Of a stretch of DNA of 64,000 bases, positions 8,647 to 24,809 are shown in pieces. How positions within the stretch are numbered: the stretch's first letter is position 1; every line of letters begins with the position of its first letter. The DNA comes from Psilocybe cubensis. Its lineage: Eukaryota. The stretch lies in assembly GCA_017499595.2 (NCBI GenBank), contig CM039004.1, positions 1,550,001-1,614,000 of the forward strand, given 5' to 3'. The translations under genes were made by a program, and so were the position numbers. A model generated the notes under the pieces. It was given only the letters and a program-made list of their open reading frames with translations. It searched no databases and had not been told where the DNA came from.

Positions 8647-8832
8647 TTGAGTTGCCGCTCGGAGATCGCGTGATCAGAGCTCGATTTAGCGGAGAAGATT
8701 CTTTGTGGAAAGAGCCTAAAGGGGATAGTGTAATTAATTGGTGACGGCGGTCACAGAGATCTGAGATCTGGGATATGATTTCCTGAGAGTTGAAAACGGA
8801 TTGTGTTTTGGTGTTCTCTTGCTATCGTTCAG

Positions 8833-10846
8833 ATGCACACCCAGTCGCCGCGCCAGATGCTCATTCCGGATTCCTATTTAGTCCCGCAAAAGGACGAGTT
8901 GTGTTTCTATTCCGCCTCGTCTCCTGGCGCGTCTGGCGTTGACTCCGAGTGTGCTCCCCGGCGCCCCTTGTCGTATGCGCCCCATAGTTCCACAGCCTCC
9001 GTTCAGTCGTCGTTGCCTCTGTCTAATCAGCCTGTTTCTGTTTCTGTTTCTGTTTCTGTTTCCTCCGCGTCTCCCGCACAAGATTCTCTTTCTTGTGATA
9101 TTAATAGTTCTCCAACGGCCCATTCAACTCGTCCTCTGATGAATTCCTATCAGCTTTCGCAGTCGCCCTCTCCCGTGGACCCCCAGACCAGTCTTTTGCA
9201 TCCCATCAATTTTTCTCAATCCCAGGAATCCTTCCTCCATTCGGAATCCAATCCATATCCGGCAGAAGATCCTTCAATTGATTCTGGTCCAGCTCATAAA
9301 CAACTCGATAAATACTCCAATTCCACTAGTCCCCAATCTTCACTACTCGATCAGCGACGCATGTCCGAGCCTGCTGCTCTCGGGGCCCCTCCCCTCTACT
9401 CTACCGCAGCTAATGACTCTTCACCTAGCAGATACCAAAATTTTGGTTTTGCTTATACTCCTCCTCCTCTTCATCCTGGTCGTTCCTCCTCTTCTGTCTA
9501 TGTCTCCCCGCTCCATCGTGGCGTTAGTACTGGATCCCTTCGCGACTTGCGCCACCATCACTTTGAATACCCTCCTCAGCAGCACCAGGAATGGAAGCAC
9601 GATGACTCCCGTCACCGTGAACAGCCAGGCGATTTTTTTGTCCATCGGACCGACTTGCTCGACGAGCCAGTCTCCCCCTTGCAGTCTACCTTCTCTCATA
9701 ACATGGGTGGCTCCCCGACATCTGGTGTCCCTTACTCACCCATCAGCGACAACCCTTACGGCCCTTCCCCTCCGGGTACTGGCACTTCTACCTCTTCTTC
9801 GGTCGCTCCACTCAGTGCCGGAATACCCTGCAGTCCGTCGCGGTCAATATCTCAGCACTTGCAGAGAAGTCTCAGTGCCTCCCAGCTCTCTGGCGATGTT
9901 ATCGACCGTAAGACTTATTCCTTTGTTGCTCTACCTGGGAACGCAGTCAAGAAGCGTCCAAGGCGACGGTATGACGAAATCGAGCGCCTCTACATGTGCT
10001 CGTGGCCCGACTGCAACAAATCATATGGTACTCTCAACCATTTAAACGCTCATGTCACCATGCAGAAGCATGGTCAGAAACGCAGCCCTAACGGTGAGAT
10101 TGATACGCCCCCTCATCGACAGAATTAATTAATTAATCGACTGTTGTACAGAGTTCAAAGAGCTTCGGAAGCAGTGGCGCAAAGCCAAAAAAGAGCAGGA
10201 AGCCGCAGCTGCGTCCTTGCACCGGGAGAGCTATAGTGACAGCTACGACGATCATGCCTATAACCACCGTTATTTGTCCTCGCACCCGATGCATCATCGT
10301 CCACATTCATCCCACAATGTCTTGGGATTGGCGTCATCGGTGACTATAGGCGGTAATAACGAGCGCTACCCCGCCATGGGTGTCGACGACATTCGATTTT
10401 CTGCTTTAGAGCGCGAGGACGATGCATTGGGCGCCTATGATCATCTAGCCACACGACAGAGGTACAATAACGTGCAGCCCTCGTCGTGGCACGGCGGATC
10501 AAACCTGACCCCGAGGTCAAGTATGCAAAATTTTGGTCCAGGACAACATCCTCACCATTCCCATCTTCCACAACTCAGTATTGGCAACCGGATATCCCAA
10601 CAAGCTCAAGAGGCCGAGTACATCAACGCCCAACATAACCGCCTGCCTCATAATAGTACTCTCCTCACCCCTCTATATCCTGGTTCGTCGTTGATGCCCC
10701 CTCTGCAAAATGGGAGCGGAAGCGTGGCCTATACAGCCGAAGGCTTCGAAATTTACGAAGACGACAATGGGAGGCCCGGTACGGGACACGCTAGTATAGC
10801 TAGCATGGGGCATGCCAGCGGCGACGACTTTGATCATTCCCAATGA
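8833..10846 (+). CDS. C2H2 zinc-finger transcription factor of the Con7 family; 2 exons
   Basis: YSFVALPGNAVKKRPRRRYDEIERLYMCSWPDCNKSYGTLNHLNAHVTMQKHGQKRSPN|EFKELRKQWRKAKKE is the single-finger-plus-helix signature of fungal Con7-like regulators; intron 10094-10152; first ATG at 8833. Confidence 0.85.
9032..9062 (+). repeat. (CTGTTT)n hexamer repeat encoding a VSVSVSVSVS tract
   Basis: About five tandem copies inside exon 1 of the C2H2 gene. Confidence 0.85.
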
Positions 10847-12239
10847 TTATCTGCGACGCTCTGTTCTCCTTGCCGAATACCACCCGTGCTGTTGTCGTTT
10901 CTTTTATTCGGTTATTTATCGACTTCGTCGGTGTGAGGAAATTAGCCACTCTTCTCACTCCATATACAAACCTTTGGCTTTCTCAGCGCGCGCTGGGGTC
11001 TATCTTCTCTACATTCGACTTCCTCCCTTCTTGAATTCTATTTCCCTCACCCTCTCTCACTGTTGTCACTTTGCTATCGCATCTATATATCCTCTGAATT
11101 CGATATCCCCTATTTTATTTTCGTCTATCATCAGGCTCCTATCTACTTTATATACTTTCTTCATTTCACTGGGATGCTTCCTCATTCGTTCGTTTGTACT
11201 TTACATTGGTATAGTCACTATCATTCTGCTGCCACATTGTCGTCACTCCTCGGATCCCACCTGCTACCTCCTATCGATTTTCTTAATAGTTGTAATCTAC
11301 TTAGAAATTCCAAGATGTAAGGCATCATCATCATCATTATACCTTTTTCTGTACATTATTATTCTTATATGTATGTTGTGGAAAATATTCAACCAAAATG
11401 CACACTTCTTTTTGACAGCTGGAAAATATCCGAAGACCTCGAGCCCGGAGATCCGTCAAAATCGAAACTGTGTAATTGAAATATAATTCTCGGGTGCTCG
11501 GTAGAACAGAATGACCTTTGACGAGGAAGAAGCAATCAAATAAGATTGGTGATCTACACTCTGTGTATACGTTGCATCATCATTCCCAGCCGATGACCGT
11601 CAAGCCAACTCTACAGCGCCTCTCAAACTGCCTCGGCTGGCAATTAAAAAAGATATATCATAAGGCCATATACGTACACACGCCGTAAGTGTTCTCAGAA
11701 CCCATGATTCTGACATTGCGCCAAAGAGGAGGGTTCGCGAAAAAAAAACCTTTCATTTGACATCTTCTCCGAGAGAAAAATAACACCTGAGATGATAATT
11801 AAAGAGTTAAAAAAGATTCAGTGGATGCAAGTGGAACTCGCTTTTGATTCACCCAAAGGGACAAAGAGGCCAAGTCGTAAGACCATCGTCATGGGATACA
11901 AAAATCAGCAGTCAAGATGGGCGGGCCAATCACGTCGCGCTTATGGCTTCCAATTCTAAGAAACGTGTTTTGGCATCTGCGCGATCATGCCATTGCTTAC
12001 AGATGAAAAGAGGTCACGTCACACTTGGTGCTTCTCTTCGCACCGCTATGTTATTTCCAGAACAGTGGGCCGTATTGGGTCTTGTTGACAAGTTATAGAC
12101 TTCGCAATCGAAGCATTCTTTGTCTCCTTTTGTCCATCCAAGATGAATTGTGCTATTTATAGCTTCCGTCTCCGGCAAGCTGATTGGGCAATGTCGCGGA
12201 GGTAAATATGATGCAATCAGGAAAAACAGTCTTTGTATG

Positions 12240-12267
12240 TGTCGGAAATTTCGGGATAGCCTTACAA
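12240..12267 (+). repeat. Left terminal inverted repeat
   Basis: TGTCGGAAATTTCGGGATAGCCTTACAA versus reverse complement of the right end TGTCGGAATTTTCAGGAATGCCTTACAA. Confidence 0.88.
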
Positions 12268-13253
12268 TGATGGGGCCTAGATTAGGCCAAAATTTGGCTT
12301 CTAATGTGATTCGGCTCTCTTAGAATGCCGACTTTTGCCTTGCGTTGGATTAGATAAATATAGAAGTCATGTGTCACTCACTTGTAAAGAGGGGCAAATG
12401 AAAATGATTTATAGAATGTATTTAGAGGACCAAATGCGTATTTATTTTGAGAAAATGTGAGTGCTAAATGTACAAGCTACCGTAAGAAACCTACTGAAGT
12501 TGAAGTTGATCCATATTACAACCATACGAGGCCTTACAACTTGACTGTGACTAACGTCACACACATACACAGCAAGTGCAAAGTTGTCAGGCATTCAAGG
12601 GATGGTCAGTATAGATATATCAAATTGGACAATTTTCTACGTCATTGTGGATCATTTACACTTTATTTTATGTACTTTTAGTGCTGTGTCAATATCCCTG
12701 CAGTTTGTGCGCCATAGAGCACAAGTAAGCAAAGGGTCACGGCCGTGAGAAGAATGTCACATGGATCACGCGACACAGTGGACTTAGAAGAAAATCACAT
12801 ACATCGTCTACGTCTTCACCAAAGTAACTGTTTATGTAGCACATGCTATCTACAAAGGTAAATAATCTAGGGTACGGTGGATAATCAGTAATTCCACACG
12901 AAGAGAGACTAATTTTGAACATGATACATGGGAAAGAATGATTTGACTGATATCTCATAAGTTGATGCATTGTAACTCGGTGTTGATTGTTGTATGTTGC
13001 ATGCATATTGCACTGTACAACTATGGTAGTACTGCCTTAATCATCAACAATGAGAATCTTTAACCTCTTAAAGACCTTTGTGCTGGATACTATGACATAT
13101 TTTGATAGATGGTTACTAGAATACATGTTCTGGCAGACTAAATTGATGAACTGATTATGGTAGCTTAGTGATGTAGCGCAGCAGAATGATGAAACTAGGG
13201 CCTATGAGACGAATAATCTCCAGCACACTCTATATTAGATGCTGGTAAAATAG

Positions 13254-13260
13254 TATAAAA
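13254..13260 (+). promoter_or_regulatory. Putative TATA box of the transposase gene
   Basis: TATAAAA about 70 nt upstream of the ATG at 13326, followed by a CT-rich stretch. Confidence 0.45.
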
Positions 13261-13325
13261 GCAGTTGGATCATATTTAATTCTTTATCTGCTCCTCTTTC
13301 TGATATCTTCTTTACTTTCAAAGAC

Positions 13326-16300
13326 ATGGCTAACCGCCGCCAGCCAAAGGACCAATTGTGCCCAATATGCAACAAGATGTTTAGCATCCAAGGCATTGCT
13401 CAACATATCCGATCATGTAGTGGCAAAACACCAAGTCTGGATGCACAGAATGCTTTTGGAGATTTTGCAAATAGGGTTTATGAAAATAGTATGTCATAGT
13501 GTATAATCTAATTATTGACATTTACCATTCAAAACTCATACAGACTCTCTACATTATACATCAATTTTAAATGCTGCTATTAGCCACTCTCCAGCTATAC
13601 CAAATGAGGATTCTACAACCGCTTCTTATTCTGCTATAGATATGGCTCAAATGGAGACACAGGATTCTCTAAATGGTCATCATATTTCCCTTTCAATGGA
13701 GCCGGAAGATTCAATTGAGCCAGTCACAAATCAATCCTCTATACTTCAAATGCTTGATGAAATTTCAAATAATCATTTGCCCCCACCGCTTCCACATCAA
13801 ATCTGCATTGAATTTCATCCAAGTGCAAATATGCCACCAAAATTCATTCCTACACACCAATATAATCCAAATTCCTATCAAACGTCACCAACACCCCATT
13901 CTACCAGTACCAACCCGTGGCATCCATTTAGGACACGTCTTGACTTCGAAGTGGCAGAACTTGCACTTAGCTCACATATGAATAGGCAGCAAAAGCAGAT
14001 TTTATTAACCCTTATTGACAGAATCAAAGAAAAGCCAGAGCAGTTTACAATTGACAGTGTATCAGAGCTTGAGAAGACCTGGGAGCTTGCTCGTAGCTAC
14101 CGTTCAACTGGAGTGCGTAATATTTTTTCTATTTTGTAGTTGTACTAACTAATACTATGGAGTACAGTTCCAGAAAAAGGAATATCTTGTACCATACCAA
14201 AATGATGAAATTGGGTATGAAGTGTATATCCGGCCACTAATTGAGTGGTGCAATAGTCTTCTTCAGAATCCTTCTCTACTTTCACAGTTTCATTGGATTG
14301 CTGAAAGGCATTATAAACAAAATGACGGTAAACGAGACCGGTTGATTGGAGAACCATGGACTGCAAATGAATGGTGGAGCATCCAGGTAGATGTATATAT
14401 TTTTCTTTTTACAAATGTAGAATACTTATCATCCTACTCTGCTTTAGAACCTTCTTCCCAATGGTGCATTACCATTTTTTATTATCCTATATGCAGACAA
14501 AACTCGGCTATCCACCTTTGGTACTGCAAAGGCATATCCAGTGCTTGCTCGCTGTGCAAATCTTCCAGCAAATCTTCGAAACAGTGATGGTATTGGTGGG
14601 GGAATCCTAGTTGGATGGCTGCCTATTGTAAGCATTCTAAATGTTATAAATTTTTTTAGTATTAAACTCCAAATATGGATTTCTAGGTTGATGAAGATGC
14701 TGGCGAGTCAGGAAAGAAAATTTTTGTAAACTTCAAGCGTATTGTTTGGCACAAAGGATTCCACGAAATTCTTAAGTCCGTTCAAGAATATGCCACAACA
14801 GGATACTATGCACAGTGTGCAGACAACATTGTCCGGTGGCTATTCTTCTTTATTTTGATTTTATCAGCGGATTATGAAGAGCAGTAAGTAATAGTTTACT
14901 TCAATATAATTGTTATAGTAAATGAAACTGTTGGGCGCCTATTTTATAGATGTGTTATGGCCCTAACCCGTGGTGCTACAAGCAACTTTCCGTGTCCTGT
15001 ATGCTTGGTTCCAAAGGAAAATTTATCAAATCTTACCACGGTATACCCTTATCGAACATCAGCAGAAATGAAACACATATATACAGAGGCACAAAATTTT
15101 ACAGCTAAAGATAAGGAGAATTATTTAAAAGAATATGGATTACGAAATGTAGAGGTATAGTGCATTATATATGTCATTATTCTTGATTAATATTTCCTAC
15201 AGAATGTATTTTGGATGATGAATGGGAGTGATGTATATAAAGCTCTTTCCTGGGATCGACTACATGCATACCATGGTGGACTATTTTCTGATCATTTATG
15301 GTCAGAATTTAAGGCTATTATTGATAGCTCTGGAAGGAAAGATGCTGAGATTATTGACAATCAGTAAGCATTGATAATATAACCTCTTGATGGATAAGTA
15401 ATAATAAGGTTTATGCTTTTATAGATTTGATCAAATTCCTCGATGGAGTGGTCTTAATCACTTTGCATCTATAATTAAGACAGGAGAATTTGCAGATGGA
15501 ACAAAATATGAAGATATAGCAAAGGTACACATGCATTTTTTAGACACTAATTGTGAATATAATATATCTGTGATTTCTAGATCATTTGTTATGCATCTCA
15601 TAATGTTCTAGAGAAGTCAGACCGTGGATATTGTCTGCTCAAGCTTATGCGAAGCTTTGTAGAATTGGATATGTATTCATCTTTGATTATTCATAGCAGT
15701 ACAACATTACATGGGTTACAAAAAGAACTTGCAAAGTTCTGTTCTATTCTTGAGGTAAGGCATTCTCCAATTCATATGTAGACCCAATTAATTCTCTCAA
15801 CAATAAAATTTCCAGGAATATATTCAACTCCATCCAGACAAAAATTGGAATTTTCCTAAAATCCATTCACATGTCCATATGATTCAAGATATTGTTGCAA
15901 AAGGTGCAACTCGGAACTCTAATACTAAACCCAATGAAAAGGCACATGGCTTGCTTAAGCTCTGGTACCGCTTTCACACCAATTTCAAAGATGTGGCGCC
16001 ACAGGAATGTGCTTTAATTCATGTGTACAATATTATTTGTCTGATCTAGTAAATTTGCTTCTAACAGATATTAAAAATGAACCACGATGATCTTATTGCA
16101 ATGATTATTCGCATGGATATCAATGCTATTGATGATCTTGACATGCCCAAAGAGGACGGCGAAGAATCACTTATATCTACACCACAAGTTTCCAATCTTG
16201 GAAATTCATTGGGTAACGGTCTATTTGTTTGTACATGTATAATGTTATTAAATTGACATTTAACAGGATCAAGTAATGAGAAAAGAGCTCAAAGTCACAT

Positions 16301-16987
16301 TTCAATTGGGTCACTTCAAGCAATAATCACATTTGCCGATGTGGAAAAACAATTCAAAGAGAACATGGCATTTGAACGCTTCCGGATTAAAACAGGAAAA
16401 TACCTTGCAGCAGCTTCTGGAAGTACTATCCGATTAAAAGCCAATCATAAGGTAAGAGTTACAAGAACAATTTAAGCATTATTTATTTTTCATGTCAAAA
16501 CTTACTTGTGTAACAGATTACACCATTTGAGCTTGCAAGAATTCATTATCAGTCGGAAATTGATTGGTCGGCTCAAAGAGATATGGTTCGAGTTAGCAAA
16601 AGTTTCCACAAGCGGCCACGAAATGATTACGTCCTTTTGGCACTTGATCATCAGAAGTACTGCTTTGCACAACTTCTGTTCATGTTTATTGTGTCATTAG
16701 ATGACAAAACAGAGTGGCCGCTTGCTCTTATTCTGCCACTTGATGAACCGGTTGATCAGCGCACAAATTTGGCACGTAGGCGTGATAAAGATTTAGAGTT
16801 TCTCCGAGTACGAGCCCGAAGGCGAACAAACTCTGCAATTATTGACGTACGTAGTATAGTACGCGGTGGCCTTCTGATTCCAGACTTTGGAAATGATGCA
16901 AACGAGTTTATTGTTATGGATTCACTTGATCCGGACATGTGGTGGCGGTTAAAATCAATAAAATTAACTACACATGTTTTATTATAA
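13326..16987 (+). CDS. Plavaka-family DDE transposase with N-terminal zinc finger; about 13 exons
   Basis: N-terminal CPICNKMFSIQGIAQHIRSC. Motifs NPWHPFRTRLDFEVAE, GEPWTANEWWSIQ, IILYADKTRLSTFG-AYPV, LSADYEEQC, FPCPVCLVP, WDRLHAYH and WNFPKIHSHVH...GATRNSNTKPNEKAH resemble the Plavaka transposase family (PF18759). The frame stays open across 12 inferred introns, one of which needs a GA donor. Confidence 0.85.
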
Positions 16988-17258
16988 CTAGTGTTGTTAC
17001 ATATTAAACAGAATACAATAAAGAGTGTAATCAAGCATGCATAGTGCTCTATTTTTGTGTTTTGTACACGTTATATTAAATTTTCAGCTTGATCCTTTAC
17101 ATAGTGGGAAAATGATGTTATATCAAGGCTATAGCACGGCGCTTAACATGAGGAAAGGGTGCGGCTCACTTTTCTGTTTAAAAGACACAAAATTTCTTCT
17201 TTCTGAGTAGCAGCACTGATATTCTAACTCATATCCTCTCTGGTACAACTCTTTGGTC

Positions 17259-19257
17259 ATGTCTTCATCAATGTCAATTGTTCCAAGCTCCGTTGCAGGC
17301 GAGTCATCCATTTCAGGCGCGTCTTTTTTCCGTGGAGCAACATTGGCCGAGCTTGAGCAAGTAAGTAATATTTTAATGTATTTTTGCATTTTCTAGATTC
17401 TAATGAATAGAAACAGAGGTGTCGGATCCAGCAAGATACCATTTTTAATCTGGAATCAAAGGTCCGGGAGCTTAAAGAGGAAAACGCAAGTTTGAAAATG
17501 CGCTTGATCAACAAAAAAGGCGCTGTTCGACCTGCTGTCTCTGACACATCGGATTGCGCAGCCGAAATAGCTCTCCGAAAGGACCTTATTCGTCTTGCTA
17601 AATATCATTTCATTTTCTATCGTATTATTGTTCCCAAGTCACTCTTTGGAAATCCCAGGCCTTCGTTCAGCTCTAACAATGCATCTGCTCGGTACAAAGA
17701 CGAGAATACATCCAAGCTTGGCAATATTGCGGAATTGTACGAATGCTTTCCAGCAAAGTACCATTCAATTATCAGTGAGAATGTGGAGATGGCAGTTAAT
17801 GTGGTGCGTTTTATATCTTTTTTCCAAGTTTAGGATATCTTGCTCATATATCTTTATTCTATAGTTCGTTAAAGGCTTGTCGGAAGGCCGTTCAACAATA
17901 CTAAATAAGATTCGGACCTCTGCGCCTTCTATTTTCCCAAACATTCCATCTGAGCTGTTCACCTCACCATTGTCTTTTGGCCTAAGCTCCCATGCGGTTG
18001 TGCAAACATTGCTTGGTGCATCGGACCGTGTAAAAGTGATGACCGGAACGAAGGAAATCTGGAAGCTCATTTATCCCAATGACACTGCGCACACATTTCC
18101 CCCAGTTTTATTTGCAGATTCTGACACCAACAACGCTTTGGGACTTTTTAAAAGTGATTTTCTTTTGAAGGTACAGTATATTTAATTCTGAAAATACATA
18201 ATACCTGGCTAAAACTCTAGTTTAGACGGCAAGAATCATTCTTCTAGGGCCATCGGCCTTAAAGGCGGAGATTATGCCTCGAACACGGGAAGATAGTCCA
18301 AGCGCCCATATTGATAGTCGTATGAATTGTACAACACCAGGCTTGATAGCTGCGTCTGCAACAGCGGTATGTATTTGTTATTACATGTATTATAAATTGA
18401 GTGCTAGATATTGACTACTAATATAGACTATATACATCTTATCCGACGACCGTGAATTTACCAGTAGTGGTGTAGGACCAACAACAGGGAGGCTTTATCT
18501 TGCTCAACACGATATGTACAAGCATTATCTCATTACACAGCAGTCATCACTCGCTTCACTGTTCAAATATTGGGATAATATTCTCTTTCCACACCAAAAA
18601 CCCATTATTCCTACTTCTATTACACAGCAGCCTACGGAAATCCTTACATCAAGCCATTCCAGGATGTCGGATTCCGAGTCAAGTCCATCTCCGCATCCGG
18701 TTTATCAGATGATTGCCAACTTTAGTCGACAAACAACCATAACTCCTAGTTCAACAACTTCTATTCCGGGTCCTATCGTTAATGTGGAAGACCGTGACAC
18801 CGACTCTGATGTAGAAGACTTTGCGCCGCCACTACAAAGCACTCGGAACCTGCCATCTAATACTCAGGATATTACTGAAGATAGATCTGATACTGACGAA
18901 GGTACTTGTCTTTTGATTCCCACGCGTTTAGCTCATGCCCATTATGTATCATTGGTATTAGAACCGACTCCGGCAGCCTTTGAGTCTGCACTCCATGTTA
19001 CAAATACCACGGTCAATGCTCCACTCCCAGTATTTCTCCCAGTTCCGAAGACTCAGACTCCGACAAGCCCTCCCCTTTCTTCCAATACAGTCTCTGTTCC
19101 TAATGCTTCCACAAGCATTTCTCCACTTGAAGCACCAGTAATCAAGCCAAAACGTGGTCGAAAGAAGGGGTTGGCCCCTGTGCAGCCTGACGCAACTGTT
19201 GTAGCCAAAACACGGAGCACACGCTCTAGTAAGCGTGCTAATATTACACCATTATAG
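17259..19257 (+). CDS. Transposon-borne accessory protein (coiled coil, conserved-looking core, S/T/P-rich tail with basic AT-hook-like motif)
   Basis: Exons join in frame: MSSSMSIVP...ELEQ|KQRCRIQQDTIFNLESKVRELKEENASLK...|FVKGLSEGRSTILNKIR...FPPVLF...|TARIILLGPSALK...TTPGLIAASATA|TIYILSDDREF...KPKRGRKK...NITPL*. Lies wholly inside the TIRs. Confidence 0.72.
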
Positions 19258-19857
19258 TAGGCACGCTGTACTTAGACTACTTTGCATTCCGGTGTATCTC
19301 ATTATGGCGGACATACTACTGTGTTTGGTTGATTACTTCTTTGCTTTTCAATGCATAGTACGGCCCTCACGATTGAGATTGTCTGAAAAAATTGAAGTCC
19401 GAGTAGACGACTCTGGACTCGATCGGTTACATCAGTTGACTAAGCACAGAAAATGTGGTGTCATATTAACGCCACACTATAATTTAAGAAAGGAGGTTTG
19501 GTCTAGTGGTAACAATGCTATTGGTAGGTTTGTCTTGTCTTGAAGGTCTGGCGTTCGGTTCTTGGTAAGTGCATAAAAGTTTGACTTCAACACAATTCCT
19601 ACTGAAAGCAATCGTTGACTACTAATCAATTGGAAACTATGTCAGTGCGTTCATCTTCCTTTTAATTTGTTAGATGCCCTTTGAATCAAGCCCAACCTAG
19701 CAAGGTCTTTTAATCTAATCTTATTCCCTACGCCTTGCTAGGCATGTATAGACTTCTAAGCCACTACCTTACAAGGTCAATCACGGTTACTTCTTAGGCA
19801 CGCTCTCAGATTGGGAGGCATCACAAGGCTAGCCGGGCCTTGCCGGCCTTTTCGGCC

Positions 19858-19885
19858 TTGTAAGGCATTCCTGAAAATTCCGACA
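19858..19885 (-). repeat. Right terminal inverted repeat
   Basis: TTGTAAGGCATTCCTGAAAATTCCGACA, followed by TG (TSD). Confidence 0.88.
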
Positions 19886-20080
19886 TGGTCAAATCGTTTA
19901 TAGACGCCGCTGATTGGCTGATATGGTATTTGAGCTTTTCGAATCGACTGTCTGGCGCATTGTTATAAAGTTCTCGGAAGGAGGCAAGTAAATGAACTGA
20001 CACTTCGGGGCGACAGGGTTTGTTTAAACTTCTTACGTCGCACGATTGCTGTGTGTGCCAAATGTGTTTCCGTTGATCAT

Positions 20081-21180: not shown

Positions 21181-22112
21181 TGACATTACGGAATTAGATG
21201 GACGCTCCAGACTTTTGCCTGACCACTCGTCCTTAAACAGTGAAACAGGGTACCCCGCGCAATAAGGAAGCATCCTCTGGGGTTCTGAGCGACAAAAAAA
21301 GATGCGTCCCCTCTTCATATTTATCCCAGGTGGAATAAATGGAAGTGAAAACGTTGCATATAGAGGCTTTTGGTGCCACATACCCATAAGGATCAAAGAT
21401 ATGTTTTCCTCTCCTACCATGTCTAGTCCTCAAGCGACATGGCGCTCCGATATCCGATTAACAGTTCTTGAGTATCAAGATAACCCAGTAATTTTGAAAA
21501 GTCTTCATATAACCTCCACAGGATATAAAGGCATTGTTGACGAGTATAGATTTGGGATACGCTACGCATCGCAAATGACAAGGAGGGCCCAGCGAGTGTA
21601 CAGCAAGCTCGATCATCGTGTTTCGACCCAAGAAAACCTTGAAAAGAGTCACAAGAAGATTGTGCATACACAGCTCATGAAGTGCAAGCTGCACGAAGAT
21701 GATAGGTTTCCCTTTTTGAAGACAAGAAGGATACAGTTACGGATAGGCAACTTGAATGAGTAGTAAAGTCAGTCAAAGTGAGACGTTGGACGCGACGCGT
21801 TATGAACGTTGACCGCGAACAGCGATAAACGTAAACAAGGCCAATCCAAGCGGGTGGGCGGGCCGCCGTATAGCGCATTACTATGAGATCATTAATACTT
21901 ATCGCAGCAACCACTTGACTGCGCCTGTCTGAAACGGGCAAACACTCATCTTGTACTCTTCCTCTACCAATCCAATTCCCGTTGTTAGTCTAGCATAGGT
22001 ATTCTCATCCTAACCCGCACACGCCGTAATTCAAGGGTCCAGGATCATCATCAGCAGAACCTCACTCTCTACAAGATACTCCACCGTGAAAGCTTTTATC
22101 GCATCGAGTACT

Positions 22113-24460
22113 ATGTCGCAACAAGGCCGCCTGGACCTCTCCCAGATTCCAATCGAGGTTCTACTCGATAACATTCTACCTCTCATACCAGTACCAGACT
22201 TGCTTAATCTGGCCCGTTGTAGCAAGGTGGATGGTTCGAAAGCATTGTAGCATCTTATGTGTTCTGATTGAACTTTGGCAGTCACTTTTGACTCTGTGTA
22301 ACGATGATAGTCTTTGGAAATATAAACTGTCCCAGGACTTCAACTTTTCAGGGAAGGATACGGCCCGTACAAGTGGGTGGAAATTTATTTACCAAGGGCT
22401 GTTTAAACCACGAGGTGAGTGCTTCGAGACATATCTTTCAAATGTATCAACTAATGACACCTCCAAAACTTCTAGTATTTGTTTGGGGGTATGATTGCCT
22501 TTCTCTTATAGGCCAATTTTGACTACTATTTTCTCAATTGCGATTCTTTAGTGACAAGACCAACGGACGACTGGGACTTCCAAACGTTCCTAAATCAGTG
22601 ATACGAGACGGAGTTCCATATCCAACACAGATCCCGTTTTCTGCACGTATTGTCAGCTTGGTTGCGGGAGGCATGTGAGTACTTGTCTATTGAATTTGTT
22701 ACATATATTTTCAATTACTTTGGTAAGGTCATTTCATGCTCTCGACTCTGAGGGTAATGTTTATGTTTGGGGTATGACGTAGTTTTACCTATGCCTCCGT
22801 CGCTTAAATATCTAACAGATTTATATAGGCAGTCTTAATGGGGCGCCGGGGACGGCACATGCATCTGACAGTCATGGATTTTCGAGTAGCTGGAAATCAG
22901 CAAGGATACCTCATCGTCTGAGGCTACCATCACCCATCCGCAGTATCAGGTGAAGAAAATCAGTCGTCTATCAAGGGTTTTTACTCACACGGTGGTGACA
23001 TATTTAGTTGTGGACGCCTGCATTCGTCATTTCTGGATCGCACAAACAAGATTTGGACATGTACAAATTGGGGCCGACCCTTCTGGTTATCATCTCCCAT
23101 TCTGACGGATCCTGATTACGCTCCGAAACAGGTTGAATGTGGATGGATGTTCTCTTCTCTTCTGACGAAATCAGGTGCTGTCTTTGTCTGGTGGCCGTTC
23201 TCAGGTTCAATGGGAGAAGCCATCCAACAGAAAATGGAGGAGATGAATTCCGAAGGCGACAAAAAAGCTTATGCCACTGAGGATAATCTAATTCCGTGCA
23301 TTCCATGGGGTGTGGACATAATGCCCACCCGCTTGCCACCTATACCCACATTACCCGAGCTAGCGAACACTACCAACACAAACACAATGACGGAGCTCAT
23401 CCAGATTGCCGCTTTTGACAACCACATTGTCGGATTGACAAACTATGGACATGTTCTGAAATATGGTTCACTGCACGACGAAAGCGGCGTTCCATTCGGG
23501 CGCTGGGAATATGTGGGTTTTTTTTACCCGAACATCTACGCAATTGCTGAAACCCTGTAGCTCCCGCAATTCAGCGAAGTCGACTCTCTTAAAATACATA
23601 CAACTTTCTCAGGAAGAACCACTGATTCCGCGAAGCTCGAGGCTCCTCATACAATTCAAATCACCCATGTCAGTAGTTCTCCTATTCGCACAGTGTCAGA
23701 ATACTTATTTATCAAACGTTGAACAGTTATCTGCCAACTTCCTTCATTTCGTTGCCTATTCCACTGGATCTTCATCTATTGTTCTTGTCGGGGACACCGA
23801 TACAAAACCAGACACACCGCCAAAAATAATTCCGGAGTTGCAGAACAAATCGATCATCTCTGTAGTCATTGGTGACTATCATAATGCCGCTTTAACGGCT
23901 AACGGTAAATTGTTAACTTGGGGATCATATTCGAATGGTGCGTTGGGTTTGGGAGACCCACTCAAACTCGAACTCGGCACACCTGGGGCGTTCGCGAACA
24001 GAGAGGAACTCGAATTAGCGAAGGCGAGAAGATTCGGACAAAGAGTACCACCTGTAGTAAATACACCAACCGAGGTCAGGTTCGACCATAACAGTAAAAA
24101 GCCCAGAGAACGATTCTGCTTTGCCGCAACGGCCGCCGGATGGCATACAGGTGCTCTGGTAATAGATCTTGAGGTATGTCATTTGTGCAATTTGCTATGT
24201 CCGAGGTCAGCAGAATAAGGTTTCTGACTTTTCATATTCGCGCCTTTTAGTCGGGGGATGACGAAGCGGAGGAGGAACAAATGCGACACGATTCTGCGGA
24301 AGCGCCGAGTCCGAGTGCGTCAGCTAGACGGCAGTGGGAGACACCTCCCATCCTACCTCTCTCAGGAATTTTCCGCATCGGACACGCTGGACGCGGTAAC
24401 TTTGGGGGCGGGTTGGGTGGAATACATCCTCGAGGCCGTAACGATGGGGATACTTCATAA
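22113..24460 (+). CDS. F-box plus RCC1-repeat protein (Saf1/Pof9-like SCF adaptor), multi-exon
   Basis: F-box LSQIPIEVLLDNILPLIPVPDLLNLARCSK...LWKYKL; RCC1-type repeats VFVWGDKTNGRLG, LVAGGMSFHALDSEGNVYVWG, VIGDYHNAALTANGKLLTWG...GALGLG, AAGWHTGAL; TAA 24458-24460. Confidence 0.85.
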
Positions 24461-24809
24461 AAATTTTACCCACTTCGGGCATGGCAAGGGTAAAAAGTTA
24501 TATCAATACGACTCTTCATATGCTTATTCGATTTATGAATCGTCTATAAATACTACTTACAGAGCCAGTCAATCATGCGCTTAATTCAATAACTGCTGCG
24601 GCATTGGCATTAATTGGTCATACTATTCATATGCTCGTCTCGTAATCTGTGATAATGTATATGTCCGACTCTAGCAAAAACTTGCAGCATGTCAAGCAGT
24701 TGAAAGGATAATTTACAGGCAAAAACAATATTTTTTTGGTAATAAATCTTCGAAGTCCAGATTCCGAGGGTGCATTGGCCAACTTGGTTCTTTCACCCAA
24801 TTTTATTTG

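What the first reader, a model, noticed from the sequence alone, without database searches (positions are those of the whole stretch)
12238..19887. Complete two-gene Plavaka-type transposon with definable ends and target-site duplication
Seen: 28-bp inverted repeats (12240-12267 and 19858-19885, 24/28 identical, TGT...ACA) bracket 7,646 bp, with TG immediately outside both ends, consistent with a 2-bp TSD. Inside are a transposase with putative catalytic residues (ADKT, SADYEE, PNEKAH, plus DRLH and CPVC motifs and an N-terminal zinc finger) and a second gene in the same orientation. Known: Plavaka transposases are a fungal, CACTA/EnSpm-related DDE group described mostly from protein sequences. 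Inference: this is a near-intact autonomous element whose ends and cargo can be defined exactly; the TIR mismatches suggest it is not brand new.
Basis: partly seen in the sequence, partly recalled or inferred. Interest (0 to 1): 0.75.

Follow-up and report, generated by a model that had tools for sequence, protein, structure and literature searches.

The report
Recently jumping PlavakaA mushroom transposon
This is a complete two-gene jumping gene of a known mushroom type (PlavakaA) that has just spread to six identical copies in this genome and is missing from some other strains; its cutting enzyme can be made correctly only through a very rare kind of splice site, which is untested.

Summary
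Confirmed. 12240-19885 (7,646 bp) is a PlavakaA DNA transposon (TGT..ACA ends, 2-bp target duplication), a class defined in 2025. The genome holds six copies, identical at all 7,646 positions, each with its own perfect 2-bp duplication. Four runs from three studies carry the empty site exactly as predicted. Three of them show no coverage of the family; the fourth has it at a seventh site. Three copies split coding exons, one the only midasin gene. Gene 1 is a 985-aa RAG1/Transib-fold DDE transposase with intact motifs. Its intron 10 has a GA donor where relatives have GT or GC, and only GA-AG splicing gives the conserved protein; no RNA was available. Gene 2 belongs to DUF6698, a constant Plavaka companion (14 of 16 loci here, 8 of 14 in other species) with no fold match. 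Identical proteins are named Psilocybe cubensis. This scan had already noted the DUF6698 link and the midasin copy on other DNA. New member of a known kind; useful as a young, testable Plavaka.

The parts
12238..12239 (.). left copy of the 2-bp target-site duplication (TG)
   Evidence: a single TG at the empty site in 4 of 4 runs laid
12240..12267 (+). left terminal inverted repeat (TGTCGGAAAT..., 28 bp)
   Evidence: same start in all six copies; begins TGTCGGAA like published PlavakaA ends
12240..19885 (+). whole PlavakaA element, 7,646 bp, 38.9% GC against 46-48% outside
   Evidence: six identical copies in the genome; GC
13326..16987 (+). transposase gene, 985 aa, 13 exons (13326-13488, 13544-14112, 14168-14386, 14448-14627, 14687-14883, 14950-15154, 15203-15363, 15425-15524, 15581-15754, 15816-16004, 16068-16212, 16267-16451, 16517-16987)
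   Evidence: stop-free model; PF18759; most intron positions shared with sister families; sister protein folds like RAG1/Transib. Exon ends inferred, no RNA
14496..14498 (+). first catalytic Asp (D334, ADKT)
   Evidence: D in 109 of 110 aligned Plavaka proteins
14870..14872 (+). second catalytic Asp (D439, SADYEE)
   Evidence: D in 108 of 110
14993..15004 (+). C(2)C motif (C458, C461, CPVC)
   Evidence: C in 105 of 110 at each position
15864..15878 (+). H(3)H motif (H673, H677, KIHSHVH); probable zinc partner of C(2)C
   Evidence: H in 110 and 109 of 110; zinc role inferred from RAG1 (recalled)
15936..15938 (+). catalytic Glu (E697, PNEKAH)
   Evidence: E in 110 of 110
16005..16067 (+). intron 10 with a non-canonical GA donor (cag|GAATGT...TAACAG); alternative GT donors at 15993 (-4 aa) and 16023 (+6 aa); retention stops the protein at 733 aa
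   Evidence: position is an intron in all 12 intron-bearing related loci of this genome and in 2 metagenome loci; splicing not shown
17259..19257 (+). second gene, 568 aa, 6 exons (17259-17360, 17417-17803, 17865-18170, 18226-18366, 18427-18901, 18962-19257): N-terminal coiled coil, DUF6698 domain, Ser/Thr/Pro-rich tail, basic C-terminal patches
   Evidence: PF20414 E 1e-11; 195 relatives at E<=0.001; model pLDDT 91
19858..19885 (-). right terminal inverted repeat (...AAATTCCGACA), preceded by short GGCC/GCCTT repeats
19886..19887 (.). right copy of the target-site duplication (TG)

Best explanation
An autonomous PlavakaA cut-and-paste DNA transposon in a very recent burst. SHOWN: exact ends, a 2-bp duplication of any target dinucleotide, six identical copies, empty sites in other strains, an intact DDE + C(2)C/H(3)H transposase frame, and a conserved DUF6698 companion gene. 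INFERRED from the RAG1/Transib-like fold: the 985-aa enzyme binds the two slightly different TGTCGGAA ends, cuts the element out (probably through hairpins on the flanking DNA, as RAG1/Transib do; recalled) and joins it into a target with a 2-nt stagger whose fill-in makes the TSD. Copy number rises by repair of the donor gap or by jumping during replication, and it may favour short hops. INFERRED: full-length enzyme is made by splicing intron 10 at its GA donor (about 0.6 overall; a cryptic GT donor giving a working enzyme adds about 0.15). INFERRED, weak: the DUF6698 protein is a nuclear helper or anti-silencing factor in the role TnpA has for En/Spm. Identity as PlavakaA with these ends: about 0.97; the confidence below is for autonomy.
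For: Six copies with 0 differences over 7,646 bp and TSDs TG, AG, TT, AC, CT, TC. No older or deleted copy of this family between 100% and about 70% identity. Empty site in 4 of 4 runs from 3 studies; no coverage of the element in X8, X9, X11 apart from short stretches that belong to sister families; X7 holds it at a seventh site with 0 differences over 12240-16859, and that site is empty in this genome. Removing the element plus 2 bp restores open frames of 732, 587 and 341 codons at three copies; removing 0, 1, 3 or 4 bp does not. The transposase keeps 95 of 98 columns conserved at 90% or more; two differences are shared with the sister protein and the third is the predicted junction. The model of the sister transposase matches RAG1 (E 5e-10) and Transib (E 2e-4). 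GA donor: it matches the rest of the donor consensus at 6 of 6 positions, the best of 17 introns; a sister family has GC in the same context. 82 of 110 aligned proteins show the five-residue NFK..Q spacing, none a longer one, and 2 lack the four residues, one being this gene's own predicted model. VAPQ begins a 40-residue helix in the model. A GC-to-GA donor spliced at about 95% is documented in Trema SYMRK (PMC10668435). This family has six copies, while the sisters that could supply enzyme in trans have one and two.
Against: No RNA evidence exists here for either gene or for the GA junction. GA-AG introns are 0-0.01% of annotated introns in five plants. The tree groups the GC sister with the GT sister (support 0.79), not with this family, so a GC-to-GA path is not established. 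Three sister copies with stop-free transposase exons and 22-25/28 TIR identity are in the same genome. The folded protein was the sister (P0003), not this one. Local hopping rests on two cases. One copy splits the single midasin gene, whose MIDAS loss is lethal in yeast, so at least that allele needs a second intact nucleus, mosaicism or rescue; this was not checked.
Confidence: 0.75

Rival explanations
1. The family is splice-defective: a T-to-A change killed a perfect GTATGT donor in the master copy, and the six copies were moved in trans by a sister PlavakaA transposase or by an unassembled wild-type copy.
For: GA donors are very rare. GAATGT is one change from GTATGT. Sisters on C9 and C10 have stop-free exons, GT/GC donors, 63-68% protein identity and 22-25/28 TIR identity. 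A Plavaka-ended element with no Plavaka genes exists in the genome, so trans-mobilisation happens.
Against: The defective family would have out-jumped its helpers six to one or two. GA also stands in X7's copy at another site. No other lesion has accumulated. No wild-type GT copy of this family was found.
Confidence: 0.2
2. Autonomous, but intron 10 is removed through a nearby GT donor (15993, losing VAPQ, or 16023, adding ECALIH) and the altered enzyme works.
For: Both alternatives keep the frame (searches show gene predictors choosing one or the other), and both use ordinary GT-AG ends.
Against: The spacing is fixed in 82 of 110 aligned proteins, with no insertion and only two deletions, one being this gene's predicted model; 15 rows lacked the motif and 13 lacked the Q. 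The site is the start of a long helix next to the catalytic-Glu helix. Both donors are weak matches to the consensus.
Confidence: 0.15
3. The identity of the copies, or some insertions, are assembly or polishing artefacts, and the family is older than it looks.
For: An insertion in an essential single-copy gene is unexpected. Four of the best-holding runs may be the source of the assembly, so they are not independent, and I did not lay them.
Against: Each copy has its own perfect TSD, and three restore host frames only with a 2-bp (mod 3) correction. An independent run has 4,650 bp with no difference. Sister copies in the same assembly do differ, by 6 mismatches and 1 gap in the aligned parts plus an insert.
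Confidence: 0.03
4. The two genes make one fused protein, as several public gene models have it.
For: Public models of 1313, 1444 and 1049 aa join both genes.
Against: The models disagree with each other for identical DNA, and one public pair is split into 919 + 566 aa. Transposase homologs end at the same place, mostly at 750-1050 aa. DUF6698 relatives are mostly stand-alone proteins. In 13 other elements of this genome the two genes point away from each other.
Confidence: 0.05

Closest known systems
PlavakaA families (PlavakaA-1_LB of Laccaria bicolor, PlavakaA-1 to -4_SLL of Serpula lacrymans, PlavakaA-1_CCO; Kojima 2025, PMC12730594)
   Same: TGT..ACA ends (mostly TGTCGGA), variable 2-bp TSDs, short imperfect TIRs, mostly about 8-9 kb, PF18759 transposase with C(2)C and H(3-4)H, no TET gene. 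The L. bicolor left end also carries GCCTTACAA at the same distance from the tip.
   Different: A separate family (nearest proteins outside this species 47-50% identical). It has six identical copies, strain-level empty sites, insertions in exons and a GA donor. The paper's main text does not mention a second gene in PlavakaA; its element sequences were cut in the supplement as served, so I could not check their gene content.
RAG1, ProtoRAG (BbRAGL) and HzTransib (CMCT clade)
   Same: Fold match of the sister transposase to RAG1 (E 5e-10, TM 0.5-0.6 over the target), BbRAGL (E 1e-6) and HzTransib (E 2e-4). Spacing D-105-D-19-C(2)C and H-20-E parallels mouse RAG1 D600/D708/C727/H942/E962 (numbers recalled).
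   Different: 10-14% sequence identity; TGT rather than CAC ends; 2-bp rather than 5-bp TSD (recalled); an extra C-terminal beta domain; the partner gene is helical DUF6698, not a RAG2-type propeller (recalled).
Maize En/Spm (CACTA) with TnpD and TnpA (recalled, no call)
   Same: Transposase plus a second element-encoded protein, short TIRs with short subterminal repeats, short TSD, insertion into genes.
   Different: Ends CACTA and 3-bp TSD there. The two proteins come from one alternatively spliced gene there and from two genes here. No Pfam match links gene 2 to TnpA.
GA-AG intron 12 of Trema orientalis SYMRK (PMC10668435)
   Same: GA donor at a position where relatives have GC or GT, in an otherwise intact gene.
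   Different: There it was shown by RNA-seq to splice at about 95%; here it is untested and lies in a fungal transposase.

Membership tests
PlavakaA (Kojima 2025) | termini 5'-TGT..ACA-3' | tested here: met
   all six copies
PlavakaA (Kojima 2025) | 2-bp target-site duplication | tested here: met
   6 of 6 copies, six different dinucleotides; empty site with a single TG
PlavakaA (Kojima 2025) | transposase falls in the PlavakaA clade of the published tree | not tested
   published sequences and tree were cut in the supplement as served; my tree has no published PlavakaA reference
Plavaka | PF18759 Plavaka transposase domain | tested here: met
   three exons over the cut-off; 185.7 bits against a cut-off of 26.3 for the public model
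CMCT clade (EnSpm, Mirage, Chapaev, Transib, Plavaka, RAG1) | DDE triad with C(2)C and H(3-4)H between the second D and E | tested here: met
   D334, D439, C458, C461, H673, H677, E697, each conserved in 105-110 of 110 proteins
CMCT clade (EnSpm, Mirage, Chapaev, Transib, Plavaka, RAG1) | RAG1/Transib-type fold | tested here: met
   tested on the sister protein P0003 (65% identical in the alignment): all 46 Foldseek matches at E<=0.001 that are listed are RAG1, RAG1-like or Transib
PlavakaB | termini CATCA..TGATG | tested here: not met
   ends are TGTCG..CGACA
TET+ Plavaka | carries a TET/JBP dioxygenase gene | tested here: not met
   the second gene is DUF6698 (76 of 80 aligned relatives) and mostly helical; no third long frame inside the element
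canonical EnSpm/CACTA | CAC..GTG ends with 3-bp TSD (fungal EnSpm in PMC12730594) | tested here: not met
   TGT..ACA ends, 2-bp TSD
autonomous element | makes its own full-length active transposase | not testable with these tools
   frame intact only if the GA donor (or a cryptic GT) is used; no RNA run holds the stretch; activity needs an assay
DUF6698 (PF20414) | profile match over the curated cut-off | tested here: met
   45.2 bits against 23.7, profile positions 1-205 of 206
known solved folds (gene 2) | structural match to a PDB chain | tested here: inconclusive
   best Foldseek E 0.84; best VIA-align Z 4.8, all on the coiled coil, so the core was barely tested

The most novel reading that the evidence does not exclude
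A currently active Plavaka element that throttles itself through a GA-AG intron. Inefficient splicing yields a little full-length RAG1-like transposase and more of a 733-aa form that keeps the whole catalytic core but lacks the C-terminal 266 residues and could act as a repressor, as the P-element short form does (recalled). A DUF6698 helper of possibly new fold would be needed for jumping or for escaping silencing. Loss of GT at this one intron in two of the three sister families would then be selected, not accidental.
Probability: 0.15. Interest if true: 0.7.

Novelty: new member of a known kind. Interest (0 to 1): 0.42.

Why it matters
The class and its ends are published, so the anatomy is not a surprise. 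What this family adds is testability. I found no paper showing a Plavaka element moving (searches; in Marasmius oreades the one Plavaka event was a deletion, not an excision). Here is a family with identical copies, carrier and non-carrier strains, and gene knock-outs, in a cultivable mushroom. It could supply the first Plavaka transposition assay, a RAG1-fold enzyme with a 2-bp stagger, a function for DUF6698 (no paper in the library names it), a native mutagen that may be altering cultivated strains, and a clean test of whether a mushroom splices a GA-AG intron.

Tried and rejected
No RNA holder was listed for the stretch; this is no evidence on expression. Complex prediction of transposase residues 157-884 of P0002 with the DUF6698 domain gave no verdict (0.05 against a mark of 0.34; alignments were not used). 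Fold searches of gene 2 found nothing significant; the core was not folded and searched without its coiled coil. Atlas look-ups returned DUF6698 and unnamed clusters only. Word-based homolog searches with single exons found only same-species proteins. A metagenome scan gave two distant loci, 56-60% identical, both with GT at intron 10. Horizontal transfer was considered because three strains show no coverage and no older copies exist, but no donor was found: the closest relatives are in the same genome (support 1.0) and the nearest foreign proteins are 47-50% identical, so it is neither supported nor excluded. Target-site preference: seven sites share no dinucleotide and no evident motif. Pfam named none of the exons broken at C2, C3 and C6 from the 1.1-kb flanks; midasin was identified from wider flanks. 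Rescue of the midasin allele by splicing out the element is possible on paper (46 in-frame donor/acceptor pairs near the ends) but needs a 7.6-kb intron where this element's own 17 introns are 48-66 nt, so I rate it unlikely. RIP-like decay: none between copies; CpG is somewhat depleted (0.67 against about 0.92 outside). Iyer et al. 2014 is not held; I know it only through citing papers and recall.
Full report
OBSERVATION. An exhaustive scan of the window for 28-bp inverted matches ranks this pair first. The element is 38.9% GC against 46-48% outside.

COPIES AND ENDS. Each end, searched with 100 bp of flank, hits six places in the 46.6-Mb genome, and the match stops at the element's first and last base. 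The five other copies (C2, C3, C5, C6, C7) differ from the window copy at 0 of 7,646 positions, and the six TSDs are TG, AG, TT, AC, CT and TC. A whole-element search finds nothing between these six and sister families at about 67% identity (the tool calls such counts lower bounds). With no change in 45,876 bp, the 95% bound is about 6.5e-5 substitutions per site since copying, well below the several differences per 3.3 kb of flank between strains. The four TIR mismatches are the same in every copy, and sister elements have 22-26/28 TIRs, so the asymmetry is a fixed trait and says nothing about age.

EMPTY SITE AND STRAINS. Of 14 runs listed, 7 hold half or more of the words; 4 of those may be the source of the assembly. 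I laid 4 others. All four show the joint 12236 to 19885, skipping 7,648 bp, which reads CTTTGTA-TG-GTCAAATC as predicted (three studies; 15 raw reads in X11). X8, X9 and X11 have no coverage over the element apart from short stretches of sister families (none at all in X8); the tool warns that holes in contigs prove nothing, but X11 is raw reads at about 35-fold on the flanks. X7 holds the element at about flank depth, with no difference over 12240-16859, behind a different flank. That flank maps once, to C6:2214134-2214163, where this genome is empty, 29.5 kb from the C6 copy. A random site would fall within 30 kb of one of six copies about 0.8% of the time. Two near-identical sister copies also lie 14 kb apart. 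Local hopping is therefore suggested by two cases, not shown. The loose-end table was cut (9 rows not shown), so further X7 sites cannot be excluded.

TARGETS. The window copy is intergenic, 1.4 kb behind a C2H2 zinc-finger gene and about 2 kb before an RCC1-repeat gene. Removing the element plus 2 bp restores frames of 732, 587 and 341 codons at C2, C6 and C3, whereas 0, 1, 3 or 4 bp do not; a fourth case (190 codons against 136-172) is weak and not counted. The C6 copy splits an exon of midasin: all three midasin lid matches of the genome lie 7-12 kb upstream on the same strand, and the last exon matches solved midasins at E 3e-91. The insertion cuts off the MIDAS domain, whose deletion is lethal in yeast (PMC6624252, passages). 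The simplest reading is a recessive-lethal allele sheltered by a second nucleus or in a mosaic culture (inference, not checked). Three exonic hits in six indicate insertions that selection has not yet filtered.

TRANSPOSASE. Thirteen exons give a stop-free 985-aa protein (one search had one acceptor off by a base). It matches PF18759. Against 110 aligned Plavaka proteins (this gene's public model, its sister and 108 of the other listed hits; fused or very long and very short ones left out), D334, D439, C458, C461, H673, H677 and E697 are conserved in 105-110 rows, and 95 of 98 highly conserved columns are kept. A model of the sister protein P0003 (pLDDT 83.5) matches RAG1, BbRAGL and HzTransib, in line with the CMCT placement in Kojima 2025 (PMC12730594; I read parts 1-3 of 7 of the text, passages from the rest, and parts 19-20 and passages of the supplement). 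That paper defines PlavakaA by TGT..ACA ends and 2-bp TSDs, so the element is a member by its ends and domain; its place in the published tree was not tested.

THE GA DONOR. After VAPQ (residue 719) the intron begins GAATGT. The genome search gave 19 matches: six copies of this family, 12 - more exactly 11 - related intron-bearing loci and 2 distant ones without an intron here. Of the 11, ten have GT and one GC; two metagenome loci have GT. In the three sister copies every other donor that could be placed is GT (intron 11 could not be placed in two). The GA site fits the remaining donor consensus at 6 of 6 positions, better than any of the other 16 introns, and has the AG|GAA context reported for GA-AG introns in two animals (PMC7072748, passages). 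Two GT donors nearby keep the frame, but delete four or add six residues where 82 of 110 proteins have fixed spacing, none is longer, 13 lack the Q and 15 lack the motif, at the start of helix 701-740 of the model. Retention gives 733 aa with the whole catalytic core. A GC-to-GA donor spliced at about 95% is known in Trema (PMC10668435, abstract and section 8), where GA-AG is 0-0.01% of introns in five plants. Against a simple GC-to-GA history, the tree joins the GC sister to the GT sister at 0.79. I put GA splicing at about 0.6, a working cryptic-GT product at 0.15 and trans-mobilisation at 0.2. No RNA could be laid.

SECOND GENE. Six GT-AG-bounded exons give 568 aa: coiled coil, DUF6698, a disordered tail and basic patches that may be a nuclear signal (inference). 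It is present in 7 of the 10 related loci fetched, plus weaker pieces in an eighth. Of 16 DUF6698 loci that the family search finds in the genome, 14 lie within 15 kb of a Plavaka match (about 4% expected; P 4e-18, though related copies are not independent), 13 of them head-to-head, whereas this subfamily is tandem. phmmer finds 195 relatives. Of 20 proteins looked up, 14 have a named record outside this species; 8 of the 14 share a contig length with one of the 120 listed transposases, two with adjacent locus tags (Gymnopilus dilepis, Agrocybe chaxingu). The model is confident (pLDDT 91) and has no significant PDB match. No paper in the library names DUF6698 or PF20414, and a 2025 preprint states that TET/JBP is the only accessory gene known for basidiomycete Plavaka (10.1101/2025.02.11.637652, passages; its supplements are closed). 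So the gene is a standard part, not cargo; a TnpA-like helper or anti-silencing role is a guess from anatomy.

HOST AND PRIOR WORK. Identical proteins carry the name Psilocybe cubensis. I found no paper on this family or on a moving Plavaka (listings only, plus passages of PMC9674265 and PMC8290104; the latter's supplementary figure on Plavaka TIRs was not read; most subscription journals are not searched). Two earlier notes of this scan, on other DNA, reach the same views on DUF6698 and on the midasin copy; I had both results before seeing them, and they are not independent support. Two look-ups found no note on the GA donor.

VERDICT. A real, exactly delimited, very young PlavakaA family: new member of a known kind. 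Interest 0.42, for its testability, the unpublished companion gene and the GA intron.

Noticed in passing
G000:C6:2177052-2184697 (L015, L097-L099): An identical copy splits a coding exon of the only midasin/Rea1 gene, upstream of the MIDAS domain (TSD AC; GT on the gene's strand).
   Followed up: yes
G000:C2:3982534 (L013) and G000:C3:3764681 (L017, L100): Copies interrupt a long low-complexity exon and an exon of a single-pass membrane protein gene that has a paralog about 2.7 kb away.
   Followed up: partly
G000:C7:2718164 (L104:238-849) and G000:C5:616066 (L106:863-1738): Two copies end about 0.2 kb and 0.8 kb before F-box-like frames (Pfam support only for the first), so they may affect promoters.
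   Followed up: no
L068 (G000:C7, about 3270028-3276119): A 6,092-bp element with PlavakaA-type TIRs (26/28) and a TG duplication has no Plavaka gene and holds Copia-like gag and pol frames: a non-autonomous Plavaka with a nested LTR element.
   Followed up: partly
L065 (C9, 8,235 bp, TSD AA), L066 and L067 (C10, 7,575 and 9,163 bp, TSD GA and GG): Two sister PlavakaA families with the same two genes. L066 and L067 are 99.8-99.96% identical, 14 kb apart, and L067 has a 1.6-kb insert in gene 2. L065 has a GC donor at intron 10.
   Followed up: partly
G000, 13 loci: Most DUF6698 genes stand head-to-head with a Plavaka transposase, a second arrangement of the same gene pair; their ends were not examined.
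   Followed up: partly
G000, top rows: About a dozen near-identical matches that cover the whole PF18759 profile in one stretch with a single in-frame stop form a second, apparently young Plavaka family.
   Followed up: no
window 8794-10846: C2H2 zinc-finger transcription factor gene resembling the fungal Con7 type (name recalled), 1.4 kb left of the insertion.
   Followed up: no
window 22090-24584: RCC1-repeat gene about 2 kb right of the insertion.
   Followed up: no
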